From Dehalococcoidia bacterium (GTDB lineage: Bacteria; Chloroflexota; Dehalococcoidia; Bin125): DNA of 64,000 nt. The notes under the pieces are model-generated. The model made no database searches and was not told where the DNA came from. It was given only the letters and a program-made list of their open reading frames with translations. Below, one piece after another: positions 63-60,699 of this stretch (the first letter of the stretch is position 1; each line of letters opens with the position of its first letter). The position numbers and the translations under genes are program-made. The stretch is from NCBI GenBank assembly GCA_965207695.1, contig CBDBNA010000005.1, positions 121,144 to 185,143 on the forward strand, in the 5' to 3' direction.

Positions 63-590
63 TTGAGACGTGCCGAAGGGTCGTGGGGTTCCCGTCCGTC
101 ACCCCCACCCCTCTCCCCGCCCTGTACCATGTCCACGGGCGGACCCACCGCCCAATCCGCGCGAAAGGGCGCCCGCGTGACCACCGAGCCGAAGTCTCCG
201 CCGCCTCCCGCCGCGCTCGGGCATAACGACGCGGCCCTGCACGATCAGGTCGGCCGTCTCTCCTCGCAACTGACGGAGTTGCGCGAGGAGGTGGAGCGGC
301 TGTCCGAGCGCAGCGTCTACGCCACTGCCATCACGACCTTGGCTTCGCCAGACTATGAACTCCTGCGTGACATCCCGATCACCGTGGAGGAGGATGGGGA
401 CGAAACCAGCGTCAGTTGGTTCGAGATCGGTCTGATGGGTGTGGACGACACCCCGGACGGAGCCCTCATTTCGTTTGAGAACCGCTTACTTCGCCTCTTC
501 GACGATCTCAACGCGATGGCGGATGACAAGTTGGGCCCACTCCCGTCTCGCTGGAAGCGGACGCTCGCGACGGTCATCCGTCACGCATGA
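63..590 (+). CDS. HicB-like antitoxin (UPF0150/HicB RNase-H-like fold); true start possibly at M at nt 129
   Basis: C-terminal segment PITVEEDGDETSVSWFEIGLMGVDDTPDGAL fits the HicB_lk_antitox pattern (..EeDGgyvA.vPeLpGc.sqGdTleEA). Its stop overlaps the next ORF's ATG by 4 bp (ATGA), which is typical TA coupling. Sits in a lower-GC patch. Confidence 0.45.
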   Translation: MRRAEGSWGSRPSPPPLSPPCTMSTGGPTAQSARKGARVTTEPKSPPPPAALGHNDAALHDQVGRLSSQLTELREEVERLSERSVYATAITTLASPDYELLRDIPITVEEDGDETSVSWFEIGLMGVDDTPDGALISFENRLLRLFDDLNAMADDKLGPLPSRWKRTLATVIRHA

Positions 591-883
591 AGCTTCCCGT
601 GTTCTCCTCGCGTGATGCCCAGCAAATGCTGCGGAAGCTCGGGATCGAGGCCGAGCAGACCAAAGAGGTGCACGGCAAGTTCTACTACGAGGGGAATCTC
701 ATCACCCAGTTCACGTTCCCGGGAAGCCACGGCGGGAGGGACTTGTCTCCGATCGTGAGGCAGTCCATCAGAAAGAACTCAAAACTCCCCCCGGAAGAAT
801 TCGTCAGGCTAATCAACTGTCCAATGCGACACGACGAGTACGTGGAAGCGCTCAAGAGGAAGGGCTTCATCCCGCCCGACTGA
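587..883 (+). CDS. HicA-like mRNA interferase toxin with a C-terminal extension
   Basis: KEVHGKFYY...FPGSHGGRDLSPIVRQSIRK resembles the HicA core (GSHh.f.hP....vPvHggkDLk.gtlksIlKq). About 56% GC against a roughly 70% background. Translationally coupled to the upstream ORF. Confidence 0.5.
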   Translation: MKLPVFSSRDAQQMLRKLGIEAEQTKEVHGKFYYEGNLITQFTFPGSHGGRDLSPIVRQSIRKNSKLPPEEFVRLINCPMRHDEYVEALKRKGFIPPD

Positions 884-1065
884 TCGGACGCCTGCGCCAG
901 ATGGACGAGGCCGGCCGGGTGCTACCCTTGGGACATGATGCAGTCGCTCAACGACGTGGCGCGCCCCCTCGCAACACGGGATGACCTGCACGCGGCCGAG
1001 ATCCGCGTCATCGGCGCCGTCGCGGCCATGCTCACCGTCGCGGTCCTGATTCTCAGCTTCACTTA

Positions 1066-1100
1066 GCCCCCGAGCCTGGCGTCGGGGGCGCTGCGCGTCC
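1066..1100. repeat. Short variant of the dispersed hairpin repeat (family A): CCCCCGAgcctggcGTCGGGGGCGCTGCGCGTCC
   Basis: Shares the GTCGGGGGCGCTtCGCGTC tail with the copies at 1216, 1356, 8360 and 7643. Contains an inverted repeat CCCCCGA/TCGGGGG. Confidence 0.4.
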
Positions 1101-1215
1101 GCGTGTCCGTAAGTGCTACAATGCGCGCGCCGGAGCCGGGGGCGCTACCCCCGCGGCCGTAGTGACCAAGGCATTGGACGGCCGCACCCCGTCGCCGGGG
1201 CGGCTCCGACACGCG

Positions 1216-1257
1216 CCCCCGACGATATATCGCGAGCCGTCGGGGGCGCTTCGCGTC
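1216..1257. repeat. Dispersed hairpin repeat family A, copy 1 (CCCCCGACGATATATCGCGAGCCGTCGGGGGCGCTTCGCGTC)
   Basis: Near-identical to the copies at 1356-1397 and 8360-8401. A 9-bp inverted repeat CCCCCGACG/CGTCGGGGG with a 13-nt loop. Confidence 0.8.
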
Positions 1258-1355
1258 TGCTAGACTGCTGGCGTGGGCGCGGGAGAGTTGCTAGCTCCCC
1301 GCGGGGCTGAGCCCTCTACGCTGGGGCCTCGTGGCAGCGATTGCCCACGCCAGCG

Positions 1356-1397
1356 CCCCCGACGATACATCGAGAGCCGTCGGGGGCGCTTCGCGTC
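1356..1397. repeat. Dispersed hairpin repeat family A, copy 2 (CCCCCGACGATACATCGAGAGCCGTCGGGGGCGCTTCGCGTC), about 30 bp upstream of the uvrD start
   Basis: Direct repeat of 1216-1257 (about 93% identity), lying 140 bp downstream of it. Confidence 0.8.
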
Positions 1398-1428
1398 CGA
1401 CCCCGACCGCCGCTGCTACGCTCCCCCC

Positions 1429-3894
1429 ATGCCGACCTCGCAGCGGCCCGACCTCCCCACCCTCGACCTCGACGGCCTCAACCCCGCCCAGCGCGAGGCG
1501 GTGACCGGGCCCGCCGGCCCGCTGCTCATCCTGGCCGGACCGGGCTCGGGCAAGACGCGCGTCATTGCCCACCGCATCGCCTGGCTGGTGCGCGAAACCG
1601 GCGTGCCGCCCTGGCGCATCCTGGCCGTCACCTTCACCAACAAGGCCGCCCGCGAGATGCGCGCCCGCGTCGAGGCGCTGCTGCCCGGCGGCCCCGACGA
1701 CCTCGGCACGCGCGGCATGGGGCTGGGCACCTTCCACGCCGTCTGCGCCCGCATCCTGCGCGCCGACGGCGAGGCGGTCGGCGTGCCGCGCGGCTTCGTC
1801 ATCTACGACGACGACGACCAGATCGCCATCGTCAAGCGCGCCCTCGAAGAGCTGTCGGTCGATACCCGCTACCACCCGGCCCGCCGCGTGCTGAGCGCCA
1901 TCTCGCGCGCCAAGAACGAGGGGCTGAGCGCCGAGACGGTGAGCGCCCACGCCGGCGACTACCGCCAGGAGGTCGTGGCGCGCTGCTTCGAGCGCTACCA
2001 GGCGGCGCTGCGCGAGAACGCGGCGGTCGATTTCGACGACCTGCTGGGCCGCACGCTGGAGCTGTTTGCGACGCAGCCGCCCGTCGCCGCGCGTTACCAG
2101 GAGCGGTTCGCGCACGTCCTGGTCGACGAGTTCCAGGACACGAACATCGTGCAGTACCGGCTGGCCCGCGCCTGGGCGGCCGGCCACGGCAGCCTGACCG
2201 TAGTGGGCGACCCCGACCAGTCGATCTACTCCTGGCGCGCCGCCGACATCCGCAACATCCTGCACTTCGCGCGCGACTTCCCCGACGCCACGACCGTGCG
2301 GCTCGAGCAGAACTACCGCTCGACCAAGGCCATCTGCCGCGCCGCCGACGCCGTCATCGACAAGGCCGCCGAGCGCATCCACAAGGAGCTTTGGACCGAC
2401 AACGCCGAGGGCGACCGCCCCGTCGTCTTCGAGGCCTACACCGAGGCCGAGGAGGCCGACGAGGTGGCCCGCGAGATCGAGTCGCGCATGGCCGCCGGCG
2501 ACTGGCGCCCCGGCGACGTCGCCGTCTGCTACCGCACCAACGCCCAGTCGCGCGTCGTCGAGGAGGCCTTCCTGCGCCGGGGCATCCCCTACCGGCTGAT
2601 CGGCGGCACGCGCTTCTACGCCCGCCGCGAGATCAAGGACCTGCTCGCCCTCTGCCGGCTGACCCTCAACCCGCACGACGACGTCGCCTTCGAGCGCATG
2701 GTCAACGTGCCGGGGCGCGGCGTCGGGCAGCGCACCCGCGCCCTGCTGCTCGACTGGGCCGACCGCCGCGACGCCTCGCTCTCGCAGGCCGCGCTGGCCG
2801 CCGTCCGCGGCACTGCATCACCCGACGGGGGCGACCCCCCGAGCGTCACGGCCCGCGCCCGCGCCGCCCTGCAGTCGTTCCTGGCCGTCGTGCAGGGCGC
2901 CCGCGAGCGCGCCGCGACGGGCACCGTCGAGCAGGTCATCGACCAGTTGCTGCGCGAGACCGGCTACCAGGACTACCTCTACCGCACCTTCGACGACGGC
3001 GAGGACCGCTGGAACAACGTGCAGGAGTTGCGCACCGTCGCGGCCAACTACGACGCCCTCGCCCCGGCGCCGAGCGAGGCCCTGCCCGACGCCCCCGGCG
3101 ACGAGGCCGCCGCGCCCGCCTCGGCGCTCGCCACCTTCCTGGCCGACGTCGCCCTCGTCGCCGACGTCGACAACCTCGAGGAGGGCCCGGCCGCCGTCAC
3201 GCTCATCACCCTGCACGCCGCCAAGGGCCTCGAGTTCCCCGCCGTCTTCCTCATCGGCATGGAGGAGAACATCCTGCCGCACGTGCGCTCCTTCGACGAC
3301 CCGTCGGCGCTCGAGGAGGAGCGCCGGCTCTGCTACGTGGGCATGACCCGCGCCCAGCGCTGGCTGTACTGCGGCTACGCCTTCCGCCGCGCGCTGGCCG
3401 GGCGGGCCGGGCACAACCCGCCCTCGCGCTACCTGGCCGACCTGCCGCCCGACGCGATCGACCGCCGCGGCCGCGCCGGCTCGTCGGCCCCCGGCCCGCT
3501 CAGCCCCGACGTGCGGCCGGCCCGCAACCGCTGGCTCACCTGGGACGACGCCGACTCGGCCCCGCCCGACCCGCGCGCCCGCGCCCGCCCCGCCGCCCCG
3601 CGCGCCCGTCCCGACCCCGACCGCTGGGACGGCGTCGACCCCGACCCCGACGCCCCACCCGCCCGCCGCCGCGTCCGCGAGGAGCCCGCCCCCTACGCCG
3701 CCGCGCCGCCGCCGCCCTCCCCCGCCGAGGCCCCCCTGCACCCCGGCGAGCGCGTCACGCATCGGGCCTTCGGACCCGGCGTCGTCGTGGCCGTCAAGTC
3801 CTCCGGCCGCGCCGACACCGAGATCACCGTCGCCTTCGACGGGGCGGGGATCAAGAAGCTGCTGCTGTCGCTCGCGCCGCTGGAGCGGGGGTAG
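1429..3894 (+). CDS. uvrD: ATP-dependent DNA helicase UvrD/PcrA (821 aa)
   Basis: Walker A GPGSGKT; helicase motifs (TFTNKAAREM, VLVDEFQDTN, VVGDPDQSIYSWRAA, QNYRST); C-terminal UvrD_C / Tudor-like tail. Start chosen at MPTSQRPDLPTLDLDGLNPAQREAV; the ORF-track N-terminal extension is upstream run-through. Confidence 0.9.
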   Translation: MPTSQRPDLPTLDLDGLNPAQREAVTGPAGPLLILAGPGSGKTRVIAHRIAWLVRETGVPPWRILAVTFTNKAAREMRARVEALLPGGPDDLGTRGMGLGTFHAVCARILRADGEAVGVPRGFVIYDDDDQIAIVKRALEELSVDTRYHPARRVLSAISRAKNEGLSAETVSAHAGDYRQEVVARCFERYQAALRENAAVDFDDLLGRTLELFATQPPVAARYQERFAHVLVDEFQDTNIVQYRLARAWAAGHGSLTVVGDPDQSIYSWRAADIRNILHFARDFPDATTVRLEQNYRSTKAICRAADAVIDKAAERIHKELWTDNAEGDRPVVFEAYTEAEEADEVAREIESRMAAGDWRPGDVAVCYRTNAQSRVVEEAFLRRGIPYRLIGGTRFYARREIKDLLALCRLTLNPHDDVAFERMVNVPGRGVGQRTRALLLDWADRRDASLSQAALAAVRGTASPDGGDPPSVTARARAALQSFLAVVQGARERAATGTVEQVIDQLLRETGYQDYLYRTFDDGEDRWNNVQELRTVAANYDALAPAPSEALPDAPGDEAAAPASALATFLADVALVADVDNLEEGPAAVTLITLHAAKGLEFPAVFLIGMEENILPHVRSFDDPSALEEERRLCYVGMTRAQRWLYCGYAFRRALAGRAGHNPPSRYLADLPPDAIDRRGRAGSSAPGPLSPDVRPARNRWLTWDDADSAPPDPRARARPAAPRARPDPDRWDGVDPDPDAPPARRRVREEPAPYAAAPPPPSPAEAPLHPGERVTHRAFGPGVVVAVKSSGRADTEITVAFDGAGIKKLLLSLAPLERG

Positions 3895-4034
3895 GGGCGG
3901 GGCAGCGCCCCTGTGTAAGATACGAAACATCCGTTCTTAGCGTTTCGCGCGCTTATGGTACCTCGGCGGTTGCTAGGTCGTTGCTCGTTGATACCGTGAC
4001 TCTCCGTCTTCTGAACGTGAAGGAGAATTACCCG

Positions 4035-5780
4035 ATGGACCTCACGGAAGCCGCAGCGCTGCTCGACAAGATTGCCGAAGAGCAATGCCACCCATTCAAG
4101 ATCGCGTCCGAGTTCAGGAAGCGGGCCGCGATCCCCGCGGATGCGGTAGTCCGGACCGCAGCTGCCGCTCTGCAGTACGACCTCACTGAGTCGGGCGAAT
4201 CGAGACGCGAGACATACGGGCCATTCGCTCCGATGCTCCAGACCGAAGACTTCGTGACGCCGCCGTATACGTGGGACGTACAAGACGACGTGCTGAATGC
4301 GTGGCAGCAACTTGCGGAGCTCGTCCATTCGCCGGTGGTCGCCGCCCGCCTCCAGGACTTGCTCTGGGTCACGAGCTTCGGCGAAGCCCCACACGAACAC
4401 GCGCGTGCCGCGATCAACAACTACATCTCGGCGTCAGCATTGCCCCACTGCGATGGGCTGGAGGCATTCGACTGCCTCGACCGGGCGTTCGATCTGTCCC
4501 GCCAACTCAATGTCCCCGGGGTGGGGGAACGTATCAGGCAGCGAGCTGTCGAAGAGCTTGTAGCCGAGTACAACCGCCTTGAGGCCGACGCACGTCCGGG
4601 CGTGGTGATCCGCCTCCTCACACTGCTGGTCAGCCTGCCCGCGGCCGATCAGCCGGATGATCTGCGCGGACTCCTGGACCAGGCTCACGTGCTCTTCGCG
4701 GGCAACTACCCAGACAATCGAATCGCACTGTTCCAGTTGCAACAGCGGCTCGCCCGCGGCGATCAAGCGGAGATTGAGCGCCTTCAGCGGGAAAGCGTCG
4801 AACTCTGGATCCAATGGGCGGCGCAGCAAGAGAGCGGCTGGCTTCGATTGGATGCCTTGGGCAAGGCCCTGGAGATCGCGAACAGCACAAGAACCACCGC
4901 GGACATGCGTGAGCCCATCCGGCTCATGATGCAGCAGACCGATCCGAGCGACCTCTACACCGAGTCGGCGGAGGTATCGTTCGAACTCCCGGCGGACGAG
5001 GTCGAGCGACTCATCGCTCTGATAGTCGGTGACGACAGCGTCGGTCGTGCCCTCGACCGCCTCGGCGCTTGGTGGCCTCCAACAGGCGACCTCCAGGAAA
5101 CTTCAGCTGCTGTTGATGAGCAGATGGAGAAGCTTGTGTTCTGGCGTCTCATCCCTCAGGTCATCACCGATCCCACGGGACATCCGCTTCGCGTCGTCGA
5201 CACTGACGAGGCAAAGCGTGCACTGGCAATGGTGCAGCACGGTGCATTTGCTGCGCGAGTCCATGCAGTGATCACAAGAAGAGCGCTCCTGGCGATTCAG
5301 GAAGCGTACGCCCCAGGCCAGCGAGAGCTTCATGAGGCCTTTCAGACCGCTCTAATCAACTCGCAACAGGCCGAGGTGTTTGCCAGGACGCTCCAACACT
5401 ACTGGGCCGGCCGGTTTGACGAGGCCATACACATCGCGCTGCCCCGCATCGAAGCTGTCCTTCGGCAAGCTCTGCTGATGGCAGGCGGCATCGCCCGCAA
5501 GCAACCGCATGGGGGGCGCTCTGGGGGGGTAAAGGCCCTCGGAGAAGTCCTTCAGGCACTGTCCCGGTGGATGCCCGAGGAGATGCGTTTCCCTTTCCGT
5601 GTCCTCCTGACCGATGACCGTGGCCTCAACTTACGAAATCGGTACATGCATGGTTTGCCTCCGCAGGACGAAAGCCAGCAAGCAACCGAGCAAGACGCCT
5701 CCCTCGTAATCCACATCATCACCCATCTTCGGCTGCTTAGTCTCCAACCATCAACGGAACCACCAGCGGACGACGACTAG
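4035..5780 (+). CDS. Hypothetical 581-aa all-alpha protein with a C-terminal HEPN-like domain (motif LRNRYMHG = R-x4-H-G); candidate RNase-type defense or abortive-infection protein
   Basis: Strong SD AAGGAG 9 bp upstream of the ATG. About 60% GC, clearly below the flanking genes. C-terminal ...IHIALPRIEAVLRQALLMAGG...LRNRYMHG fits the HEPN Rx4-6H signature. No similarity to housekeeping families that I recognise. Confidence 0.55.
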   Translation: MDLTEAAALLDKIAEEQCHPFKIASEFRKRAAIPADAVVRTAAAALQYDLTESGESRRETYGPFAPMLQTEDFVTPPYTWDVQDDVLNAWQQLAELVHSPVVAARLQDLLWVTSFGEAPHEHARAAINNYISASALPHCDGLEAFDCLDRAFDLSRQLNVPGVGERIRQRAVEELVAEYNRLEADARPGVVIRLLTLLVSLPAADQPDDLRGLLDQAHVLFAGNYPDNRIALFQLQQRLARGDQAEIERLQRESVELWIQWAAQQESGWLRLDALGKALEIANSTRTTADMREPIRLMMQQTDPSDLYTESAEVSFELPADEVERLIALIVGDDSVGRALDRLGAWWPPTGDLQETSAAVDEQMEKLVFWRLIPQVITDPTGHPLRVVDTDEAKRALAMVQHGAFAARVHAVITRRALLAIQEAYAPGQRELHEAFQTALINSQQAEVFARTLQHYWAGRFDEAIHIALPRIEAVLRQALLMAGGIARKQPHGGRSGGVKALGEVLQALSRWMPEEMRFPFRVLLTDDRGLNLRNRYMHGLPPQDESQQATEQDASLVIHIITHLRLLSLQPSTEPPADDD

Positions 5781-5785
5781 CCCCA

Positions 5786-5807
5786 CCCCCAACAGCACGG
5801 GGGCTTT
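5786..5807 (+). terminator. Possible intrinsic terminator (CCCCCaacagcacGGGGG followed by CTTT)
   Basis: A 5-bp GC stem immediately after the stop of the 4035-5780 gene, followed by a short T tract. Weak. Confidence 0.3.
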
Positions 5808-5874
5808 GAGTTGGCGCCGGTCCAGCGATTGTCCCCGCCTCGTATACTGCGCCGATGACAGCAAGGGGTGACCG

Positions 5875-6267
5875 ATGAGCAAGTGGAAGTGGGCCGCTGG
5901 GGCCATCGGCGTCATTGCGTTGGGCGCGTTCGCGGCGGCGTGGGCGCTCACCGAGGCAGACGTACTGCGCTGGGGCGCCACCGCCGCCCTGCACGACCGC
6001 ATTGAGGCCTTAGAGCGTCGGGCCGAGGCCGCGCCGAAGACGCCTGACTGGACCGTGCTCTCGCGCGAGGGGCCGGTGTTCCGCGTCGTCGGCGGCGCCC
6101 CCATCGTCGAAGCGTGCATCACCTACACGTCGCCGTCGGGCGTGCAAGAGCGCTGCCGCCTCATGGCGACGCGCGGCCCGGGCGGCGAAGCGGAGATGAT
6201 AGAAGACGTCGGCCCGTGCTGGGACCTGGCCCGCATCGGCGCCCCCCTGCCCGATTGCTGGCGCTGA
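5875..6267 (+). CDS. Hypothetical small secreted or membrane-anchored protein (130 aa)
   Basis: N-terminal hydrophobic segment WAAGAIGVIALGAFAAAWAL. RBS-like AAGGGG upstream. Lies inside the lower-GC island. Confidence 0.4.
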   Translation: MSKWKWAAGAIGVIALGAFAAAWALTEADVLRWGATAALHDRIEALERRAEAAPKTPDWTVLSREGPVFRVVGGAPIVEACITYTSPSGVQERCRLMATRGPGGEAEMIEDVGPCWDLARIGAPLPDCWR

Positions 6268-6273
6268 CCACAC

Positions 6274-6339
6274 CTACCCGGACATCCGCGGCGACGTGTG
6301 CATCTCCCTGCCCGCCCGCGGGCCCGCCGGCGACGGCAG
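6274..6339. repeat. 66-bp direct repeat B1 (CTACCCGGACATCCGCGGCGACGTGTGCATCTCCCTGCCCGCCCGCGGGCCCGCCGGCGACGGCAG)
   Basis: About 85% identical to 7578-7643. Together the two copies bracket the 6406-7575 gene. Confidence 0.8.
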
Positions 6340-6405
6340 TTCCGGGGACACCCGTCAGTTGGCACGCCGAGCTAGCATCGTGCGAGCATCCTTGAGCGGA
6401 TCCTG

Positions 6406-7575
6406 ATGACGAACAACCTGACCCTCTTCGACGACTTCGAGCGGACGAACACGTGCGAGAAGCCCTCAGCCCAGGAGATGGTCGATTTCATCAATGAGTC
6501 GGCTTGGCCATCGAGCGAGCGGGTCCGCGCCGTCTTCGAGCGGTGGTTCTCGCACTACCCCGACGATCGGAAGAAGAACCTACGTCGCCGCTTTCGCGAA
6601 GGTGCTCACCAGCACGACTCCGCGGCCTTCGAGCTCATGCTGCACGAACTCCTGCGCCGCCTGGATTTCGCGGTGGTCGTGGAGCCGGAACTCCGAGAGG
6701 GTCACGGAAGGCCGGACTTCGCGATCACGGACCGGCGTGGGCGCGCTTCGTACATCGAGGCGACCGTTGCGGAGTATACGGGTATGCGCCTCGGAGATCC
6801 GCTTCAGAACGAAGTCTTCGATACGATCAATGAGATACGTCCGCCGGACGGGATCGCATTGAGGGCAGACCCTCGCGGCGCGTTGGAGCAGGCCCCATCC
6901 CGCACGAGAGTCCAGGACACCGTCCGGGAGTGGCTGGAGGGGATCGATCCGGCACGCATCATCGACGGGGCGCCGGTCGAGAACCGGCGCCTCAAGTTCC
7001 GATGTGGGAAATGGAGGTTGAAGCTGACTGCGATTCCCTGGAAACGGGGCAACGCTCACCAGTTGATCCAGGCCGGGCCAATGCCTTTCAGCACCGACAT
7101 CGACGACGTCGCTTACTTGAAGAGCAAGCTACTTACCAAGGCACGCAAGTATCGCAACTTGGACAAGCCGTTGATCGTCGCCCTGAGCATCCCCGGCTCG
7201 CCCGTGGATGCCGACGGCCAGCTAGCGACGCTCTTCGGCGAGCGGGATGACTGCCACTCAATCGGGGGCGCTCACACGGTCGTGACGGGCACGGCTCGGA
7301 CTCCGGACTCAGCCTGGCTCGACAACGACGGGCCGCGTTCCCGGGGGCTCCATGGCGTCACGTTCTTTGGTGACTGGATGCAGTCCGTCGCCGGCTCTCA
7401 CGCCTGCACGTACATCAATCCCTTCATCGACGCCAAGATTCCCGACGAACTGCTTCAGTTAGGCAGTGCCCGGGTCGAAGACGGAACAGTCGTCTATGAG
7501 GAAGGCCCCCGCCTCGGGGAAATCCTCCGACTCCCCAAGGACTGGCCCGGCCCTCCGGGGATGCCGTCGGACTAG
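6406..7575 (+). CDS. Hypothetical 389-aa protein, possibly with a PD-(D/E)xK-like nuclease core; flanked by 66-bp direct repeats
   Basis: Lower GC in its 5' half. Segment AFELMLHELLRRLDFAVVVEPELREGHGRPDFAITD...ASYIEATV resembles an E...PD...ExK-type core with an atypical last position (T instead of K). No family that I recognise. Confidence 0.5.
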   Translation: MTNNLTLFDDFERTNTCEKPSAQEMVDFINESAWPSSERVRAVFERWFSHYPDDRKKNLRRRFREGAHQHDSAAFELMLHELLRRLDFAVVVEPELREGHGRPDFAITDRRGRASYIEATVAEYTGMRLGDPLQNEVFDTINEIRPPDGIALRADPRGALEQAPSRTRVQDTVREWLEGIDPARIIDGAPVENRRLKFRCGKWRLKLTAIPWKRGNAHQLIQAGPMPFSTDIDDVAYLKSKLLTKARKYRNLDKPLIVALSIPGSPVDADGQLATLFGERDDCHSIGGAHTVVTGTARTPDSAWLDNDGPRSRGLHGVTFFGDWMQSVAGSHACTYINPFIDAKIPDELLQLGSARVEDGTVVYEEGPRLGEILRLPKDWPGPPGMPSD

Positions 7576-7577
7576 CC

Positions 7578-7666
7578 CTACCCGAACATCCGCGGCGCCG
7601 TGTGCATCTCCCCGCCCGTCCACGGGTCGGCCAGCGACGGCAGCGCCGGGGGCGCTTCGCGTCCCC
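7578..7666. repeat. Direct repeat B2 (66 bp) fused to a partial family-A tail (CGCCGGGGGCGCTTCGCGTCCCCC)
   Basis: 7578-7643 matches 6274-6339. 7643-7666 matches the 3' part of the family-A repeat, so the A and B families appear to be related. Confidence 0.75.
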
Positions 7667-7704
7667 CACCCCCGCCCCTGCTACCCTCCACCCGAGGAGG
7701 CCCC

Positions 7705-8160
7705 ATGCCCACGTTCTCCGTCAACGACGACGCCCCCGACTGGCAACGCGACCACACCCGCCGCTACCTCGACTCGAACGGCGCCGACGGGCACGACTGG
7801 ATCGCGCCCAACGGCGACGGCCCCTACCCCACCCTGCTGCTGCTGACCGTCGGCCGGCGCAGCGGCGCCGAGCGCACGCTGCCCCTGATCTACGGCGATT
7901 ACGACGGCGCCTACGTGATCATCGCCTCGAAGGGCGGCGCGCCGGCCCACCCCTCCTGGTACGTCAACCTGGCCGCCAACCCCGAGGTCTGGGTGCAGGT
8001 GCGCGACCGCCGCACCGCCGCCACGGCCCGCACCGCCTCGGGCACCGAGCGCGCCGCCCTCTGGAAGCAGCTCGCCACCATCTACCCGCCCTACGACGAG
8101 TACCAGGAGCGCGCCAACCCGCGCGAGATCCCGGTCGTCGTGCTCGACCCGCACGACTAG
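7705..8160 (+). CDS. Deazaflavin (F420)-dependent nitroreductase/quinone reductase family protein (Ddn-like, PF04075)
   Basis: PTLLLLTVGRRSGAERTLPLIYGDYDGAYVIIASKGGAPAHPSWYVNLAANPEVWVQV is the characteristic family signature. RBS GAGGAGG upstream. Confidence 0.8.
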   Translation: MPTFSVNDDAPDWQRDHTRRYLDSNGADGHDWIAPNGDGPYPTLLLLTVGRRSGAERTLPLIYGDYDGAYVIIASKGGAPAHPSWYVNLAANPEVWVQVRDRRTAATARTASGTERAALWKQLATIYPPYDEYQERANPREIPVVVLDPHD

Positions 8161-8359
8161 GGCCTCAGGCGCCTCCCCATCCATCTCGATGGAGCGGAGG
8201 CCGTCGGGTGAAGTCGGCCGCCGGCCGCGCGTCCGGGGTGCTATACTGAGCGAGCCGGAGCCGGGAGGCGTCAACTCCCGCCGCCGTGCATCCAGGGGTC
8301 GCCATTTGGCCCCATGGTGCGTATAGGCGGCACTCCGCACACGGAGCGGCCCCGACCCG

Positions 8360-8401
8360 CCCCCGACGATACACCGTGGACCGTCGGGGGCGCTTCGCGT
8401 C
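8360..8401. repeat. Dispersed hairpin repeat family A, copy 3 (CCCCCGACGATACACCGTGGACCGTCGGGGGCGCTTCGCGTC)
   Basis: Matches 1216-1257 and 1356-1397. Sits 16 bp upstream of the 8418 start codon. Confidence 0.8.
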
Positions 8402-8417
8402 CGCGCCCGGAGTTCCC

Positions 8418-8828
8418 ATGCCCTCCTCCGTCATCCCCTCGTTCCGCTACGCCGACGCGCCCCGCATGATCGACTTCCTCTGCGACGCCTTCGGCTTCGA
8501 GCGCAACCTCGTCGTGCCCGACAGCGATGGCGGCGTCGCGCACGCGCAGCTGACCCTGGGCGACGGCATGATCATGCTCGGCTCGGCCCGCGACGACGAC
8601 TTCGGCGCGCTGGTCGTGACGGCCGCCGCGGCCGGCGCGCTGACCAGCTCCCCCTACGTGATCGTGCCCGACGTCGATGCGCACTGCGCGCGGGCCCGCG
8701 CCGCCGGGGCGGAGGTCGTGATGGAGCCGGCCGACCAGGACTACGGCGGCCGCCTCTACGCCGCCCGCGACCCCGAGGGGCAGCTCTGGAACTTCGGCTC
8801 CTACGACCCCTGGGCGGCGCCGGAGTAA
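8418..8828 (+). CDS. VOC family protein (glyoxalase/bleomycin-resistance fold)
   Basis: FRYADAPRMIDFLCDAFGFERNLVVPDSDGGVAHAQLTLGDGMIMLG...VVMEPADQDYGGRLYAARDPEGQLWNF is typical of VOC / PhnB-like proteins. Confidence 0.75.
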   Translation: MPSSVIPSFRYADAPRMIDFLCDAFGFERNLVVPDSDGGVAHAQLTLGDGMIMLGSARDDDFGALVVTAAAAGALTSSPYVIVPDVDAHCARARAAGAEVVMEPADQDYGGRLYAARDPEGQLWNFGSYDPWAAPE

Positions 8829-8838
8829 CCCCCCGCCG

Positions 8839-10353
8839 TCAGCCGATCCGCACGCCCTCGGCCGGGTAGCGGTAGCGCGCCTGGCCGCGGTCGGGCACGG
8901 TCAGCGCGACCATCAGCGGGGCCAGCCGGCCCACGAACATCAGCACGATCAGGATCGCCGTGCCCGCGCCCGAGAGCGTCGCCGTCACGCCCTGCGACCA
9001 GCCCACGTTGGCCAGCCCCGACATCGCCTCGAAGACCAGCGGCAGCACGGGGCCGTCCTCGGCCAGCATCATCGCGACCACGCCGACCGTCAGCGCCACG
9101 ACGCCCAGCAGCACGACCGCGATCGCCCGCAGCACGACGGCGTGCGGGATCTCGCGGCCGAACAGCTCGGCCTGGTGCCGCCCCCGCAGCGACGACACGA
9201 CCACCGCCAGCCCCACGACGAACGTGCCCACCTTGATCCCGCTCGCCGTCGAGGTGGAGGCGCCGCCGATGAACATCAGCGGCAGCAGCACGACGGTCGT
9301 CACGTCCTGCAGGGCGCTCATGTCCACCGCCGACATGCCCGTCGTGCGGTTGACCGAGAGGAAGAAGGAGTTGACCAGCGCCTCGAGCGGGGTGCGGCCG
9401 TCGAGCACGCGGCCCGACTGCACCTCGGCGGCGAGGAAGAGCGCCATGCAGCCGACGAGCAGGCCGGCCATCATCAGCACGACCATGCGCGTGTCGAGCG
9501 ACCAGCGCCGCCAGCCGCGCCGCAGGTCGAACACGGTCACGAAGGACAGGCTGCCCAGGAACGCCGCCACGCCCATCACGATCAGCGGGTAGGGCGCGCC
9601 GATCTGCGCTTGGAAGCTCTGCCGCCCGCCCATCAGGTCGAAGCCGGCGCTGTTGAAGGCCGAGACGGCGTGGAACAGCGCCGACCAGACCGCGCCCGCC
9701 CCGCCGAACTCGATCAGGAACCAGGGCAGCAGGAGGAGGAACGTCAGGACCTCCGCCACCGCGACGTAGATCAGCACCCGCCGCAGCAGCCGGCCGATGT
9801 CCCACTCGCCCGAGCCCGTCAACTCCATGCCGAAGAGGCTGCTGCCGCGCAGCCCGAAGCGGCGCCCCAGCAGCACCAGCAGCGAGCCCGCGTAGATCGT
9901 CACGCCCAGGCCGCCGATCTGGATCAGCGCGATGATCACGGCCTCGCCGAAGCCGCTCCAGTGCTCCGCCGTGTCGACCCGCACGAGGCCGGTCACGCAG
10001 ACCGCCGAGGTCGCCGTGAACAGCGCGTCGAGCCCGTTCGTCCAGCGGCCCGACTCCGCTGCCCAGGGCAGCGACAGCAGCGCCGCGCCGATGAGGATCG
10101 CCGCCCCGAAGGCGCCCACCAGGTACCAGGGCGTGGGGCGCAGGCGGATCACGCGCCGCGGGCGCTCGAGCGCGAAGACCTCCGTCTGCACGCGCCGGCG
10201 CCGCAGGACCACGTCGCCGGGGCGCCGCACCGTGCGCGACCGTGTCGTGCGCGCCTCCCCGCCGCCTCCGCCGCCGCCCCGTCCCCGCCGCGCCGCCGCC
10301 CGCCGCCACCCGGCCCGAAGCCACGCCCGCGGTCGCACAGCCATCGCCTCCAC
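8839..10353 (-). CDS. trkH: TrkH/KtrB family potassium uptake transporter
   Basis: Multi-pass membrane protein with repeated selectivity-filter-like segments (IQIGGLG, SAFNSAGF, GASTSTASGIKVGTF). N-terminal Arg/Gly-rich extension; the true start may lie downstream. Confidence 0.85.
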   Translation of the reverse strand: MEAMAVRPRAWLRAGWRRAAARRGRGGGGGGGEARTTRSRTVRRPGDVVLRRRRVQTEVFALERPRRVIRLRPTPWYLVGAFGAAILIGAALLSLPWAAESGRWTNGLDALFTATSAVCVTGLVRVDTAEHWSGFGEAVIIALIQIGGLGVTIYAGSLLVLLGRRFGLRGSSLFGMELTGSGEWDIGRLLRRVLIYVAVAEVLTFLLLLPWFLIEFGGAGAVWSALFHAVSAFNSAGFDLMGGRQSFQAQIGAPYPLIVMGVAAFLGSLSFVTVFDLRRGWRRWSLDTRMVVLMMAGLLVGCMALFLAAEVQSGRVLDGRTPLEALVNSFFLSVNRTTGMSAVDMSALQDVTTVVLLPLMFIGGASTSTASGIKVGTFVVGLAVVVSSLRGRHQAELFGREIPHAVVLRAIAVVLLGVVALTVGVVAMMLAEDGPVLPLVFEAMSGLANVGWSQGVTATLSGAGTAILIVLMFVGRLAPLMVALTVPDRGQARYRYPAEGVRIG

Positions 10354-10355
10354 CT

Positions 10356-10412
10356 CCCCCCGACGATACGCCCTCCGTCGCTACGCGCAGTCGTGAGGGG
10401 CGTCGGGTGTAC
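10356..10412. repeat. Divergent, longer variant of the family-A repeat (CCCCCGACGATACGCC...GGGGCGTCGGGTG)
   Basis: Head CCCCCGACGATAC and tail GGGGCGTCGGG resemble family A. Lies in the divergent intergenic region between trkH and the next plus-strand gene. Confidence 0.45.
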
Positions 10413-10463
10413 CATGGCCGCAGGTCGCAGAGCGACGTCCCAGGAAGGGATCCGACGTGCCCG

Positions 10464-11108
10464 ATGAACCGCAGTCCGCTCAGCCGCCTCCTCCACATCC
10501 GCCGCCTTCGTCGAACCCCGGCAGGATTCTCAGGGACGCTGGACAACCCCGGCGTCAGGCGAATAACGAACTCCGCTGACGACGCCGTGGACCCCGCTGA
10601 TGATCCGGGCGTCCCCCCGCCCCACGCTGCGCAGTCATTCGATCCCGAGAACTACCCGAGCCTCGACTTGGCGTTCCGGCAAGGCGTGCGCTCGTACTCG
10701 CAAGTCGCCGCCCGACTCACGGCCGTCCACGGACGGATCGATGCCCTTCAGTGGGCTGTGATATGGCTGACGGTCGCGTTCCCGATCGGTGTGCGGGCAG
10801 CCGACGGGGCCGCGAGCTTCACATCGGGATTCGCCATCGCTGCGTTCGCGTTGGCGGGAGTCACAGTCTTCCTGGGGCTGGCAGCCCGCGCATGGTCTGG
10901 AATGACGCTGGTCAACCCCGCCCGTCTCTACGCGCACTGGCTCCACCTGCCCGAAAAGGAGTTCAAGCTCCGCAGTCTCTATTGGGCGGGCCAGCACTTC
11001 GAAGAGAACTCCCGGGCCGTGAACCGGAAGTCGTTGCTTGCGTCGCTCATGGTCCTACTCCTGCTCGTCGAAGTCGGGCTGTTCGTCGCCTGGTTCGCGA
11101 GCACGTAG
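10464..11108 (+). CDS. Hypothetical membrane protein (start could instead be the in-frame ATG at 10413)
   Basis: Three to four predicted TM segments (WAVIWLTVAFPIGV, FAIAAFALAGVTVFLGLAA, LLASLMVLLLLVEVGLFVAWF). Lower GC (about 60%). The long 5' extension in the ORF track overlaps the trkH 5' end and is unlikely to be real. Confidence 0.45.
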   Translation: MNRSPLSRLLHIRRLRRTPAGFSGTLDNPGVRRITNSADDAVDPADDPGVPPPHAAQSFDPENYPSLDLAFRQGVRSYSQVAARLTAVHGRIDALQWAVIWLTVAFPIGVRAADGAASFTSGFAIAAFALAGVTVFLGLAARAWSGMTLVNPARLYAHWLHLPEKEFKLRSLYWAGQHFEENSRAVNRKSLLASLMVLLLLVEVGLFVAWFAST

Positions 11109-11139
11109 AGGCCGCTCCGGGCCTCCTTCCAGGCGCCTT

Positions 11140-11238
11140 GGGAGCCCCTTGGGAGCCCCTTCCGGACCCCTTCTGCACCCCTTCTGCACCCCTTCCGGAC
11201 CCCTTCTGCACCCCTTCTGCACCCCTTCCGGACCCCTT
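11140..11238. repeat. Perfect 11-bp tandem repeat array, 9 units (GGGAGCCCCTT x2; then [CCGGACCCCTT CTGCACCCCTT CTGCACCCCTT] x2 + CCGGACCCCTT), giving a 33-bp higher-order period
   Basis: Read directly from the sequence. Intergenic: 32 bp after the stop at 11108 and about 100 bp before the 11338 start. Confidence 0.95.
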
Positions 11239-14332: not shown

Positions 14333-16353
<2,021 letters not shown>

Positions 16354-16357
<4 letters not shown>

Positions 16358-18333
16358 GAGGGGGCCTCTCCGTTTGTAGCGCCGGTCGTAGCGCCGTTCG
16401 TAGCGCCGTTCGTACCGGCCGATGGATGCGTCGCCGGGTCGGGCGTCGCGACGCCCGCCGGGGCGTGCAGCGCGCGTCCCCGCGCGTGACTCTCCAACAC
16501 CTGGGCGGCAGGCGAGGACTCGTCATCCGGCGTCCCGTGCGAGCCGTCCCGGGCGAGGTCGTAGGCGGCATCGTGCAGGGGCCGCGCACCGAGTTCGCGC
16601 TGCTTCTCGGCGAGCAGCCGCGCGTGCTCGCGCGCATCCTCCTGCATATGGAGGTGGCGGATGTTCCCGGCGATGTCCCGCGCCGCGACGCCCGGCTCGG
16701 CCAGCAGCGGCGGCGCGACGGGCCGCGCCCGCAGTTCCTCCGCCAGGGCCCCCAACTCACCCTCCCGCGATGCCGCGTCCTCGCCCGCCAGCAGCGAGCG
16801 CAGCAGTTCCCGCCGCAGCGCGTCGGGCACGAAGCCGGGCGTGCCGGCGTCCACCTCTGCGGCGGCGGCCGGGCCGTGCTGCAGCAGCGTGATCAGCGTC
16901 TCGGCGTGCTTGTCGATGCGCGTCAGCCGGCGGCGGGGCGGCGGCGCGGCGGCCGCTTCCGGGCGCGCGGCCGGCCCCGGCGAGGCCCGCAGGTGCGGCG
17001 GCACTTCGGCGATGCTGGCCCGCCGCCGCAGCGTGTCCACGTCGATTCGGCACATCTGCGCCAACCGCTGCATGTACTCGGCCCGCACGATCGGGTCGCT
17101 CGTCGCGGCGACCAGCGGCAGCAACTCCCCCATCAGCACGCTGCGCGCGCGGGGGTCCTCCAGGTCGTGCGCCTCGCGCCCGCGCCGGAAGCGATAGTCG
17201 AGGTAGCCCGGCGCCTCCCGCACCAGCGCCGACCAGCGCTCCGGGTCGAGCCGGATCAGGTCGTCGGGGTCGCGGTCCGGCGGCAGCTCGATGATGCGGA
17301 TGTCGGCCGCCAGCGTGTTCTGCATCCGCACCAGGCCCCGCGCCGTCACGACCGGCCGCGGCTCCGTGCCCACGGCCTCGCGCGCCGTGTCGATGCCGCG
17401 CACGGTCGCCGCCGCGCCCGCCGCGTCGGCGTCGAGCGCGAGCAGGATCTTGCGCGTCAGCGGCTTGATCAGCGCCACTTGCCGCTCCGTCAGCGCCGTC
17501 CCCATCGACGCGACGACGTGCGTCTGCTCGTGCTGGTGGGCGGCGATCACGTCCATGTAGCCCTCGACGACGATCACGTGGTCGGCGCGGCGGATGTCGT
17601 CGCGGGCGCGGTCCAGGCCGTAGAGCAGCGAACTCTTGTCGAACAGCGGCGTCTGCGGCGTATTGAGGTACTTGACATCCGAGTCGTCGAGGGCGCGCGC
17701 GCCGAATCCGACGCAGCGGCCCTGCGGGTCGCGGATGGGGAAGATCAGCCGGCCGCGGAAGCGGTCGCGGACGGGACCCTCCCCCTCGACGCTGAGCCCG
17801 GCGGTCGCGATCTCCTCCGCGCTGTAGCCCCGCGCCGACAGGTAGCCGCGCAGCGCGTCGGGCGCCGCCGGGGCGTAGCCCAGGCCGAACTGCTCCGCCA
17901 CCGCGTCGGGCACGCCGCGCCGTTCGAGGTAGCCGCGCGCCTCCGCCGCCTCCGCGTCCGCGAGGCTGCGGCGGTAGAAGCGCGCCGCCGCCTCGTTGAC
18001 GCTGCGCAACCGTCCCAGCCGCTTCTGGCGCTCCTCGGCCTGGGCGTCCATCGGGGCCACCTGGACGCCCGCCCGCTCGGCCAGGATGCGCAGCGCCTCG
18101 CGGAACTCCACCCCCTGGCGCTTCATGACCCAGGAGAAGACGTCGCCGCCCTCGCTACAGGCGCCGAAACAGCGCCACGTCTGGCGGCTGGGGTCGACGA
18201 TGAACGAGGGCGTCTTCTCGGCGTGGAAGGGGCACAGGGCCTTGAACGTGCGGCCCGACTTGCGCAGCGCGACCGACTCGCCCACCAACTCGGCGATGTC
18301 CACCCGCGCCTTGACCTCGTCGACGACGCTCAA
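16354..18333 (-). CDS. dnaG: DNA primase DnaG
   Basis: Zinc-binding [11 protein letters not shown]; TOPRIM core ([23 protein letters not shown]). Its stop overlaps the rpoD start by 4 bp. Confidence 0.9.
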
Positions 18334-42458: not shown

Positions 42459-42584
42459 CGTGTCCTCAACACCCTCCCCGACCGCCGGGCCCCGGTGAGC
42501 CCCGCCGGTTCCGGGGTCGCGTTTCCGACAGTGACGGTAGCAAGCCCCCCGCGCGCTCTGTCCAGTGCCCCCGCCGCGCGACCG

Positions 42585-60588: not shown

Positions 60589-60699
60589 GGCAGGGGGCTC
60601 CTTCGCTCTCGCGTCGATCGGCGCGAGTGTAGCAGCGCCGCGCCGCGTCGCCGCCGGCCGCGATTGCCCTCCGCCGGGGCCGTAAGTACGGTGACCGCG

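What the first reader, a model, noticed from the sequence alone, without database searches (positions are those of the whole stretch)
1066..10412. Dispersed hairpin-containing repeat (family A: CCCCCGACGATAYAYCGNGAGCCGTCGGGGGCGCTTCGCGTC) at six or more intergenic sites, always just 5' of a start codon
Copies sit at 1066-1100 (short variant), 1216-1257, 1356-1397 (two copies 140 bp apart, upstream of uvrD), 7643-7666 (partial, upstream of the F420 nitroreductase), 8360-8401 (upstream of the VOC gene), and a divergent copy at 10356-10412 (upstream of the membrane-protein gene). Each has a 9-bp GC stem with a 13-nt loop, followed by the conserved CGCTTCGCGTC tail, which ends 15-40 bp before the ATG. 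This is either a REP/MITE-like selfish element with an insertion preference for 5' UTRs, or a shared cis-regulatory or leader RNA structure (attenuator, protein-binding hairpin) co-regulating uvrD, the F420 nitroreductase, the VOC protein and the island genes.
Basis: seen in the sequence. Interest (0 to 1): 0.55.

Follow-up and report, generated by a model that had tools for sequence, protein, structure and literature searches.

The report
Terminator hairpin of multicopy small-RNA genes
The repeated GC hairpin is the 3' end of a previously undescribed family of about 130-nt structured small-RNA genes, each with its own promoter, that come and go around a defence-gene hot spot next to uvrD in a narrow group of uncultured Dehalococcoidia.

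Summary
The repeat is real, but it is only the tail of a larger unit. Three full copies (1216-1257, 1356-1397, 8360-8401), one short solo hairpin (1066-1099) and one 3'-arm remnant (7645-7663) are confirmed. The "divergent copy" at 10356-10412 is not a member.

Each full hairpin lies 86-122 nt downstream of a single TGnTAnnnT extended -10 box. The same box sits in front of uvrD and the F420H2 reductase gene. Between box and hairpin lies an RNA body that folds as a P1-closed three- or four-way junction.

A covariance model found 28 matches (26 distinct sequences) in the window and seven related Dehalococcoidia assemblies. 91.6% of cells pair and 19 of 37 pairs show compensatory changes, all in the body. 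The hairpin stem is almost invariant.

There is no Rfam, tRNA, plasmid, phage, viral-contig or metagenome match. Units are present or absent at orthologous sites in close relatives, and some lie at gene 3' ends. None occurs in the other 54 kb of the window.

Best reading: independently transcribed multicopy sRNA genes whose hairpin ends or stabilises the transcript. It is not a REP and not a shared 5' leader. The RNA's function is unknown.

The parts
1066..1099 (+). Solo short-loop hairpin plus tail (CCCCCGAGCCTGGCGTCGGGGGCGCTGCGCGTC). It lies directly after the stop codon of a 44-aa membrane-peptide gene (935-1066).
   Evidence: It resembles the short-loop or variant hairpins of units in L280 and L292. 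The covariance model gives only a weak hit at 992-1099 (17.6 bits).
1114..1122 (+). Extended -10 box TGCTACAAT of unit W1.
1125..1257 (+). Unit W1, a four-way-junction (cloverleaf) RNA body. P1 is CGGAGCC (1131-1137) paired with GGCTCCG; P2, P3 and P4 follow. The hairpin is 1213-1249 and the tail TTCGCGTC runs to 1257.
   Evidence: Covariance-model score 124.5 bits. Folds. Consensus structure.
1259..1267 (+). Extended -10 box TGCTAGACT of unit W2.
1267..1397 (+). Unit W2. A 12-bp P1 (GCTGGCGTGGGC paired with GCCCACGCCAGC) closes three hairpins. The terminal hairpin is 1353-1389 and the tail runs to 1397.
   Evidence: Covariance-model score 64.4 bits. Fold. Inverted repeat I10. An orthologous unit is present in L292 at 9848-9969.
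1414..1422 (+). uvrD's own -10 box TGCTACGCT, 6 nt before the ATG at 1429 (a leaderless-type promoter). It is not part of the repeat, but it explains why the tail lies close to a start codon.
7645..7663 (+). Remnant, 3' arm plus tail only (GCCGGGGGCGCTTCGCGTC). The near-identical genome L292 has a full unit at this site (15632-15750), with the same upstream flank.
7679..7687 (+). -10 box TGCTACCCT of the F420H2-dependent quinone reductase gene (7705-8160).
8170..8215 (+). Degenerate copy of a different, REP-like hairpin family (CTCCATC...GATGGAG plus GTGAAGTC). It was inserted together with unit W3.
8239..8247 (+). Extended -10 box TGCTATACT of unit W3.
8250..8401 (+). Unit W3, a four-way-junction body with hairpin 8357-8393 and tail to 8401. 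It sits between the reductase and VOC genes, which are only about 17 nt apart in two related MAGs.
   Evidence: Covariance-model score 115.1 bits. Filled versus empty site. Ortholog in L292 at 16336-16487.
10356..10412 (.). Rejected: not a family member. It is a conserved divergent intergenic region upstream of trkH.

Best explanation
The hairpin plus GCGCTTCGCGTC tail is the 3' module of a multicopy family of independently transcribed small-RNA genes, each about 130-150 nt.

Each unit has four parts in order:
- an extended -10 promoter (TGnTAnnnT);
- a structured body closed by helix P1 (core CGGA/UCCG), holding P2 (GGGRG-loop-CYCCC) and one or two variable helices (P3, P4) that form a three- or four-way junction;
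- a 12-bp all-GC hairpin;
- a short tail.

The hairpin most likely ends the transcript or protects its 3' end. It would also insulate the next promoter, which lies 4-24 nt downstream and belongs either to another unit or to a protein gene. This layout is why the tail looks as if it sits just 5' of start codons.

Units share their two ends, and recombination between those ends duplicates, deletes and shuffles them. The result is tandem arrays, chimeras, solo hairpins and remnants around the variable defence-gene region next to uvrD.

Shown here: the repeat, the promoter-box linkage, the covarying body, the strand, presence/absence between relatives, and the lack of any known homolog.

Inferred: transcription, termination at the hairpin, and that the RNA acts in trans. 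Its target or partner is unknown.
For: - Promoter linkage. All 12 first-found hairpins have exactly one TA-box 86-118 nt upstream. In the larger set, 24 of the 25 units the script could place have one [CT]G[CG]TAnnnT box 86-122 nt upstream, against 0.02 expected per 90 nt. The two L280 units failed in that script but show the box by eye. The exception is the truncated L295 copy.
- The box is a real promoter element. TGSTAYNNT occurs only 7 times in 64 kb, and every occurrence faces a gene start or a unit.
- Structure from plain alignments. MAFFT plus RNAalifold gives a cloverleaf with 8 of 37 and 8 of 34 compensatory pairs. Type c gives a three-way junction.
- Structure from the model alignment of 26 distinct units. 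91.6% of cells pair and 19 of 37 pairs change on both sides. No shuffle out of 500 reaches the observed value on four of five measures (7 of 500 for pair types). Slid controls give 40-53% pairing.
- Strand. G-U pairs are conserved on the promoter strand (for example GU:11 and GC:10 at one P1 pair, and AU to GU in the hairpin). Forward-strand scores are 34-126 bits, reverse-strand scores 29 or less.
- Folding energy. z-scores are -3.0 to -3.7 on the + strand.
- Units that cannot be leaders. Some lie convergent to an MmeI gene's 3' end, and one lies after a stop codon.
- Turnover. W3 is absent from two MAGs. There are no units between the 46-aa gene and uvrD in L293-L295. The window/L292 homology breakpoint falls at the body/hairpin boundary.
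- No known family. Rfam gives nothing at the gathering threshold or at E up to 5. ARAGORN finds no tRNA.
Against: - There are no expression data, so no transcription start or 3' end is shown.
- The tail has only two U residues (UUCGCGUC), so it is not a canonical intrinsic terminator, and the terminator scan does not call it. It may instead be a processing or stability hairpin.
- The hairpin stem shows almost no covariation (9 of 11 pairs never vary), so its RNA role rests on context and two AU to GU changes.
- Folding energy is as good or better on the minus strand.
- All sequences come from eight closely related assemblies. Many units are paralogs, and the largest alignment was fitted to the model, which inflates pair counts.
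- Two units (L280 2971-3100, L111 3386-3517) lack the 5' strand of P1.
- The VOC gene has no -10 box after W3, which implies read-through or leaky termination.
Confidence: 0.68

Rival explanations
1. A selfish REP- or MITE-like repeat. On this reading the unit, or just the hairpin, spreads by transposition or recombination, and its RNA has no function. The promoter and fold would be incidental or serve only the element.
For: - Units are present or absent at orthologous sites in relatives with 84-98% identical UvrD.
- Solo hairpins, remnants and chimeras exist.
- Units concentrate in a variable, horizontally exchanged region.
- W3 arrived together with a copy of a truly REP-like element.
Against: - No terminal inverted repeats at unit ends, and no clean target-site duplication at the filled versus empty W3 site.
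- Copy number is low: 3 full units in 64 kb, all within 8.4 kb.
- Compensatory changes in P1-P4 indicate selection on the RNA fold.
- No transposase or RAYT gene was seen nearby.
Confidence: 0.17
2. A shared cis-regulatory leader (attenuator, riboswitch or protein-binding hairpin) in the 5' UTRs of uvrD, the F420H2 reductase gene and the VOC gene, co-regulating them.
For: - In the window, three hairpin tails end 17-41 nt before an ATG, all on the gene strand.
- A hairpin that could terminate transcription sits upstream of each ORF.
- W3 lies inside what is an operon in relatives, and no new promoter precedes the VOC gene.
Against: - uvrD and the reductase gene have their own -10 box downstream of the hairpin, which leaves a leaderless or 17-nt leader.
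- Each unit has its own promoter.
- Units occur in tandem, at gene 3' ends and convergent to MmeI.
- Orthologs of uvrD, the reductase and VOC genes in relatives lack the units.
- No riboswitch family matches.
- Neighbouring genes share no function.
Confidence: 0.07
3. A DNA-level element: a cruciform or recombination site that marks cassette boundaries in the defence-island hot spot and is recognised by a recombinase.
For: - The 11-bp stem sequence is nearly invariant across all unit types while the bodies diverge.
- Synteny and homology breakpoints between genomes coincide with the hairpin.
- Units flank variable defence cargo.
Against: - The left border of the island swap between the window and L292 is the uvrD stop codon, not a unit.
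- No integrase or recombinase is consistently nearby.
- AU to GU changes in the stem fit RNA pairing, not DNA pairing.
- Loops range from 7 to 14 nt with no conserved core.
- Ordinary homologous recombination between 40-nt identical patches explains the breakpoints.
Confidence: 0.05

Closest known systems
Multicopy or tandem bacterial sRNA gene families (for example NsiR1 tandem repeats in Anabaena, Yfr2 family in cyanobacteria, LhrC1-5 in Listeria, AbcR/alpha-r15 in Rhizobiales, Qrr1-5 in Vibrio). Comparison from my own knowledge.
   Same: - Several paralogous short genes, often head to tail.
- Each has its own promoter and a terminal stem-loop.
- Conserved ends with variable internal parts.
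- Copy number differs between related genomes.
   Different: - No sequence or Rfam relationship.
- The body is a P1-closed three- or four-way junction rather than simple stem-loops with single-stranded seeds.
- The terminal hairpin lacks a U-tract.
- Units are confined to a defence-gene hot spot and are mosaic.
- Expression and targets are unknown.
REP/BIME and MITE-type intergenic repeats (for example E. coli REP, Neisseria Correia elements). Comparison from my own knowledge.
   Same: - Intergenic GC-rich palindromes.
- Present or absent between strains.
- Able to carry promoter or terminator activity and to promote rearrangements.
   Different: - No terminal inverted repeats or target-site duplications.
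- Few, clustered copies.
- Strict linkage and orientation to a promoter box and a covarying RNA body.
- A separate, truly REP-like family does exist in the relatives and looks different.
Intrinsic (Rho-independent) terminators, including the U-tract-less 'I-shaped' hairpins predicted in high-GC bacteria. Comparison from my own knowledge.
   Same: - A very stable GC stem-loop at the end of a short transcription unit.
- One copy lies directly after a stop codon.
- Followed by the next promoter.
   Different: - Only two U residues follow the stem.
- The 13-nt loop is large.
- The stem sequence is identical in nearly all copies, which ordinary terminators are not.
tRNA and tRNA-like cloverleaf RNAs.
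   Same: Type a/d units form a four-way junction with a 7-bp closing helix, followed by a short single-stranded stretch.
   Different: - ARAGORN finds nothing at default or 90% thresholds, and only inconsistent mixed-strand calls at 80%.
- No D-, anticodon- or T-loop signatures.
- Other unit types have only three helices.

Membership tests
REP/BIME-type repeat | Many (tens to hundreds of) copies dispersed through extragenic space of the genome. | tested here: not met
   There are 3 full units plus 2 fragments within 8.4 kb and none in the other 54 kb. In the 2.7-Mb and 1.05-Mb MAG contigs, only two adjacent 8-kb blocks each matched.
REP/BIME-type repeat | The palindrome is the whole element, occurs in both orientations, and is linked to a RAYT transposase. 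| tested here: not met
   The hairpin is almost always attached to a promoter plus RNA body in one orientation. No transposase was seen in the annotated flanks, except one DDE gene 5 kb from the nearest unit in L294.
MITE | Terminal inverted repeats and target-site duplication. | tested here: not met
   The inverted-repeat search shows only internal helices and no terminal repeats. The filled versus empty W3 site shows no clean duplication.
Intrinsic terminator | GC-rich stem-loop at the 3' end of a transcription unit. | tested here: met
   The stem is 12 bp and all-GC. The hairpin at 1066-1099 directly follows a stop codon. The unit hairpins follow a promoter plus RNA body.
Intrinsic terminator | U-tract immediately after the stem. 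| tested here: not met
   The tail is UUCGCGUC, with variants CUC, AUU, UCU and UCC. The consensus terminator scan does not report it.
Riboswitch or attenuator leader | Lies between the promoter and the regulated ORF in one transcript, with conserved linkage to that gene. | tested here: not met
   A -10 box belonging to the ORF lies downstream of the hairpin. Units occur at gene 3' ends and in tandem. Orthologous genes lack the units.
Any Rfam 15 family | Covariance-model match. | tested here: not met
   No hit at the gathering threshold over the whole window, and none at E up to 5 over 900-10700.
tRNA | Cloverleaf with canonical loops, as detected by ARAGORN. | tested here: not met
Independently transcribed structured sRNA gene | Own promoter element at a fixed distance. 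| tested here: met
   24 of the 25 units placed by the script have one TGnTAnnnT-type box 86-122 nt upstream of the hairpin, against a background of 0.02 per 90 nt. The same motif precedes bona fide genes.
Independently transcribed structured sRNA gene | Secondary structure kept by compensatory substitutions. | tested here: met
   19 of 37 pairs change on both sides, and no shuffle out of 500 reaches the observed value on four of five measures. Alignments made independently of the model give 8 of 34 to 8 of 37.
Independently transcribed structured sRNA gene | A discrete transcript is detected. | not testable with these tools
   No transcriptome data are available. The literature search for Dehalococcoidia small RNAs found nothing relevant.

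The most novel reading that the evidence does not exclude
The cloverleaf or three-way-junction RNAs could be functional components of the defence-island hot spot beside uvrD. For example, they could regulate or immunise neighbouring defence cassettes; the C1-C2 unit pair travels with an MmeI restriction-modification gene in five assemblies. Alternatively they could be tRNA-like landing pads or homology arms that let cassettes be swapped. That would make them a new class of island-associated structured RNA rather than ordinary housekeeping sRNAs.
Probability: 0.12. Interest if true: 0.7.

Novelty: new member of a known kind. Interest (0 to 1): 0.42.

Why it matters
No small RNAs have been described for this lineage of Dehalococcoidia. 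The literature search found none and Rfam has no match.

This finding provides a candidate RNA family with a clear gene model: a promoter box, a covarying fold and a 3' hairpin. The model can be tested directly with metatranscriptomes.

It also shows three other things:
- An extended -10 motif, TGCTAYNNT, probably defines promoters in this organism, including leaderless ones.
- A '5'-UTR repeat' can be a misreading of upstream sRNA genes.
- Short shared modules drive rapid rearrangement of a defence-gene hot spot.

If the RNAs turn out to act on the adjacent defence systems, the interest would be considerably higher.

Tried and rejected
- Rfam at gathering and permissive thresholds: nothing.
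- ARAGORN at default and relaxed thresholds: no consistent tRNA.
- Genome-collection scan with the tail 19-mer: mostly chance hits in unrelated high-GC genomes. Only two Dehalococcoidia MAGs were relevant.
- Metagenome scan with the hairpin pattern: 86 loci, none with the family's loop, tail or 5' motif.
- Viral-contig scans with the hairpin and with the P1/P2 motif: only unrelated terminators and chance hits.
- Plasmid and phage BLAST of 1100-1400: no match.
- Search for a target complementary to the conserved hairpin loop in the window: at chance level.
- Idea that the tail is a -35 element for the next promoter: rejected, because tail-to-box spacing varies from 4 to 24 nt.
- Idea that a neighbouring 98-aa gene is a conserved partner: rejected, because the 98/99-aa proteins near units in different genomes are unrelated.
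- Type III toxin-antitoxin or another defence partner in the upstream operon 63-1066: no Pfam, PHROG, PADLOC or NCBIfam support.
- Possible antiterminator pairing between P2 (CGGGGGCGC) and the hairpin 5' arm: present only in some unit types, so treated as coincidence.
- More distant relatives (L283-L291; reductase 71-78% identical): no units at the orthologous locus.
- Exact look-up of the window's own reductase protein: not on record.
Full report
**1. Observation**

The window has 72% GC. No match is expected in shuffles.

The 3' arm plus tail, GTCGGGGGCGCTTCGCGTC, also matches 1081-1099 and 7645-7663 with one mismatch each. That is five matches against 0.35 expected. 1066-1099 is a short-loop hairpin. 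7645-7663 has only the 3' arm and tail.

With the flanking GCG/CGC, the stem is 12 bp and the loop 13 nt.

The sixth site, 10356-10412, shares only CCCCCGACGATAC with the family. The covariance model does not find it. In relatives the orthologous, otherwise conserved trkH-upstream sequence reads CCCCGTCACG or CCCCGCCACG. It is not a copy.

**2. Gene map**

Pfam gives the following:
- UvrD at 1429-3894
- an F420H2-dependent quinone reductase at 7705-8160
- a glyoxalase/VOC protein at 8418-8828
- TrkH on the minus strand at 8839-10353

Window 3895-7575 is a 62% GC island. It holds a DUF4209/DUF7380 protein similar to the candidate defence family PDC-S39.

The short hairpin at 1066 abuts the stop codon of a small membrane-peptide gene. 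The true start of that gene is ATG 935, 6 nt after a TGCTACCCT box.

**3. The hairpin is the end of a larger unit**

The tail scan of the genome collection recovered two related Dehalococcoidia MAGs, with 88-92% DNA identity to the window in shared genes. In them the same hairpin recurs every 150 nt or so.

In all 12 copies first found, exactly one TA-box lies 86-118 nt upstream, nearly always preceded by TGn. In the enlarged set, 24 of the 25 units the script could place carry one [CT]G[CG]TAnnnT box 86-122 nt upstream. The background is 0.02 per 90 nt. The exception is a truncated copy.

In the window, TGSTAYNNT occurs only seven times. Every occurrence faces a start codon or a unit. The sites are uvrD (6 nt before the ATG, so leaderless), the reductase gene, the 44-aa peptide gene, two distant genes, and units W1 and W3. 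This is therefore the organism's promoter -10 element, and each unit has its own.

**4. The sequence between box and hairpin is a structured RNA**

Single-sequence folds give a body closed by helix P1, with two or three internal hairpins, followed by the GC hairpin.

MAFFT plus RNAalifold on type a/d units gives a four-way junction. 8 of 37 pairs are compensatory in five sequences, and 8 of 34 in eight sequences. One example is A-U to G-C in P1. Others are CG/GC/UA alternations in P3 and AU/CG in P4. Type c units give a three-way junction.

A covariance model built from five units found 28 units in total, 26 of them distinct:
- 15 in the window and the first five related loci
- 13 more in four further relatives

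On that alignment 91.6% of cells pair and 19 of 37 pairs change on both sides. No shuffle out of 500 reaches the observed value on four of five measures. Slid controls fall to 40-53% pairing.

This alignment is fitted to the model and the sequences are related. I therefore weight the independent alignments at least as much.

The strand follows from three things:
- the promoter boxes;
- G-U pairs conserved on that strand;
- forward scores of 34-126 bits against 29 or less on the reverse strand.

Folding energy alone does not discriminate between strands.

**5. The hairpin itself**

Nine of its eleven modelled pairs never vary across 26 distinct units. One pair shows A-U to G-U twice. One G-C to C-G change appears.

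The loop varies freely. It ranges from 7-nt short loops to 14 nt, so it is not the functional core. The three variable tail positions lie within GCGC-NNN-GCGTC.

The RNA reading rests on context. The stem's invariance across otherwise divergent unit types points either to concerted evolution through recombination or to a sequence-specific constraint. I cannot tell which.

**6. Distribution and dynamics**

No unit lies in window 10.5-64 kb. Fetching relatives through the reductase and UvrD proteins shows that uvrD and the reductase gene flank a variable slot. In different relatives the slot holds:
- MmeI-type restriction-modification genes
- a reverse transcriptase
- PIN/DUF433 modules
- SocA_Panacea
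- DUF4209 proteins

Units occupy at least seven distinct positions in and around this region:
- upstream of uvrD (window, L292)
- upstream of the small peptide gene (MAG B)
- upstream of the reductase gene (MAG A, MAG B, L281, L292; the window keeps only the remnant at 7645)
- between the reductase and VOC genes (window and L292 only; about 17 nt apart elsewhere)
- convergent to the 3' end of MmeI (L064, L280, L293, L294, and inverted in L292)
- one further site in L293/L294
- a truncated copy in L295 (14535-14607)

More distant relatives have none at this locus.

Chimeric units exist. B4's 3' end mixes types a and c, and W3 combines a type b 5' half with a type d 3' half. The window/L292 homology breakpoint falls at the body/hairpin boundary. 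This fits recombination between the shared ends.

There are no terminal inverted repeats and no clean target-site duplication.

**7. Interpretation**

The best-supported model is a clade-restricted family of independently transcribed, structured small-RNA genes. It would terminate or stabilise the RNA and insulate the next promoter.

- The tail ends shortly before start codons because a promoter follows the tail.
- Two copies lie 140 bp apart because the units are tandem.
- Partial copies exist because decayed units remain.

The weak point is the lack of a U-tract and of any expression data.

The cis-leader model is contradicted by the promoters downstream of the hairpin, by units at gene 3' ends, and by orthologous genes that lack units.

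A purely selfish repeat is contradicted by the covarying fold and the low, clustered copy number. However, the units clearly do turn over like mobile DNA, so 'mobile sRNA gene cassette' is a fair hybrid description.

**8. Comparison with known systems**

Nothing matches in Rfam 15, tRNA searches, plasmids or phages, viral contigs or metagenome contigs. A literature search found no Dehalococcoidia sRNA work.

In organisation it resembles multicopy or tandem sRNA families such as NsiR1, Yfr2, LhrC or AbcR (from my own knowledge). It is not a member of any of them.

**9. Verdict**

This is a real and reinterpreted feature. It is a new RNA family of a familiar kind, with an unusual mosaic architecture, an invariant 3' module and an association with a defence-gene hot spot. 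Interest is moderate. It would rise if the RNAs prove to act on the neighbouring defence cassettes.

Noticed in passing
window 8170-8215; L281 at 130, 1659, 5652, 9728 and 10500; L284-L287, several sites: A second, truly REP-like dispersed hairpin family: TCCGATCCCCCCTCTCCATC-(3-7 nt)-GATGGAGAGGGGG, followed by CAGGGGGTGAGGT. It has five copies in 20 kb of a relative. The window holds one degenerate copy just upstream of unit W3.
   Followed up: partly
window 3895-7575: A 62% GC island between uvrD and the reductase gene. It holds a PDC-S39-like DUF4209/DUF7380 protein (4038-5780) and a 389-aa protein with a weak PD-T7-5 match (6406-7575). In relatives the same slot holds MmeI restriction-modification genes, PIN/DUF433, SocA_Panacea or a reverse transcriptase. 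It is a defence-island hot spot.
   Followed up: partly
window 6266-6347 and 7570-7651: An 82-nt direct repeat (84% identical) flanking the 389-aa gene. In L292 the same sequence (15553-15618) is the upstream flank of a complete RNA unit whose body is deleted in the window.
   Followed up: partly
window 920-928, 1414-1422, 7679-7687, 42534-42542 (-), 60626-60634 (-): TGCTACNNT extended -10 boxes precede gene starts. For uvrD and for a 44-aa membrane-peptide gene (935-1066), the box lies 6 nt before the ATG, which implies leaderless mRNAs. The classical -35/-10 scan finds essentially nothing in this region.
   Followed up: partly
L292 13770-15296 (-): A near-identical relative (UvrD 98% identical) carries a 508-aa RVT_1 reverse transcriptase in the island slot where the window has the DUF4209 gene. 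Its type (retron, DRT or group II intron) was not determined.
   Followed up: no
window 11101-11238: A tandem repeat with an 11-nt period (CCCCTTCTGCA and variants, at least 8 copies), seen in the repeat scan.
   Followed up: no
window 29935-32033: Three to four tandem copies of a 534-606-nt unit, 74-86% identical. This is probably a repeated protein domain.
   Followed up: no
window 63-883: Two overlapping small ORFs (175 aa and 98 aa) with no confident family match. A paralogous or orthologous pair lies directly upstream of unit B4 in MAG B (L111 3621-4377). Any link to the RNA units is unproven.
   Followed up: partly
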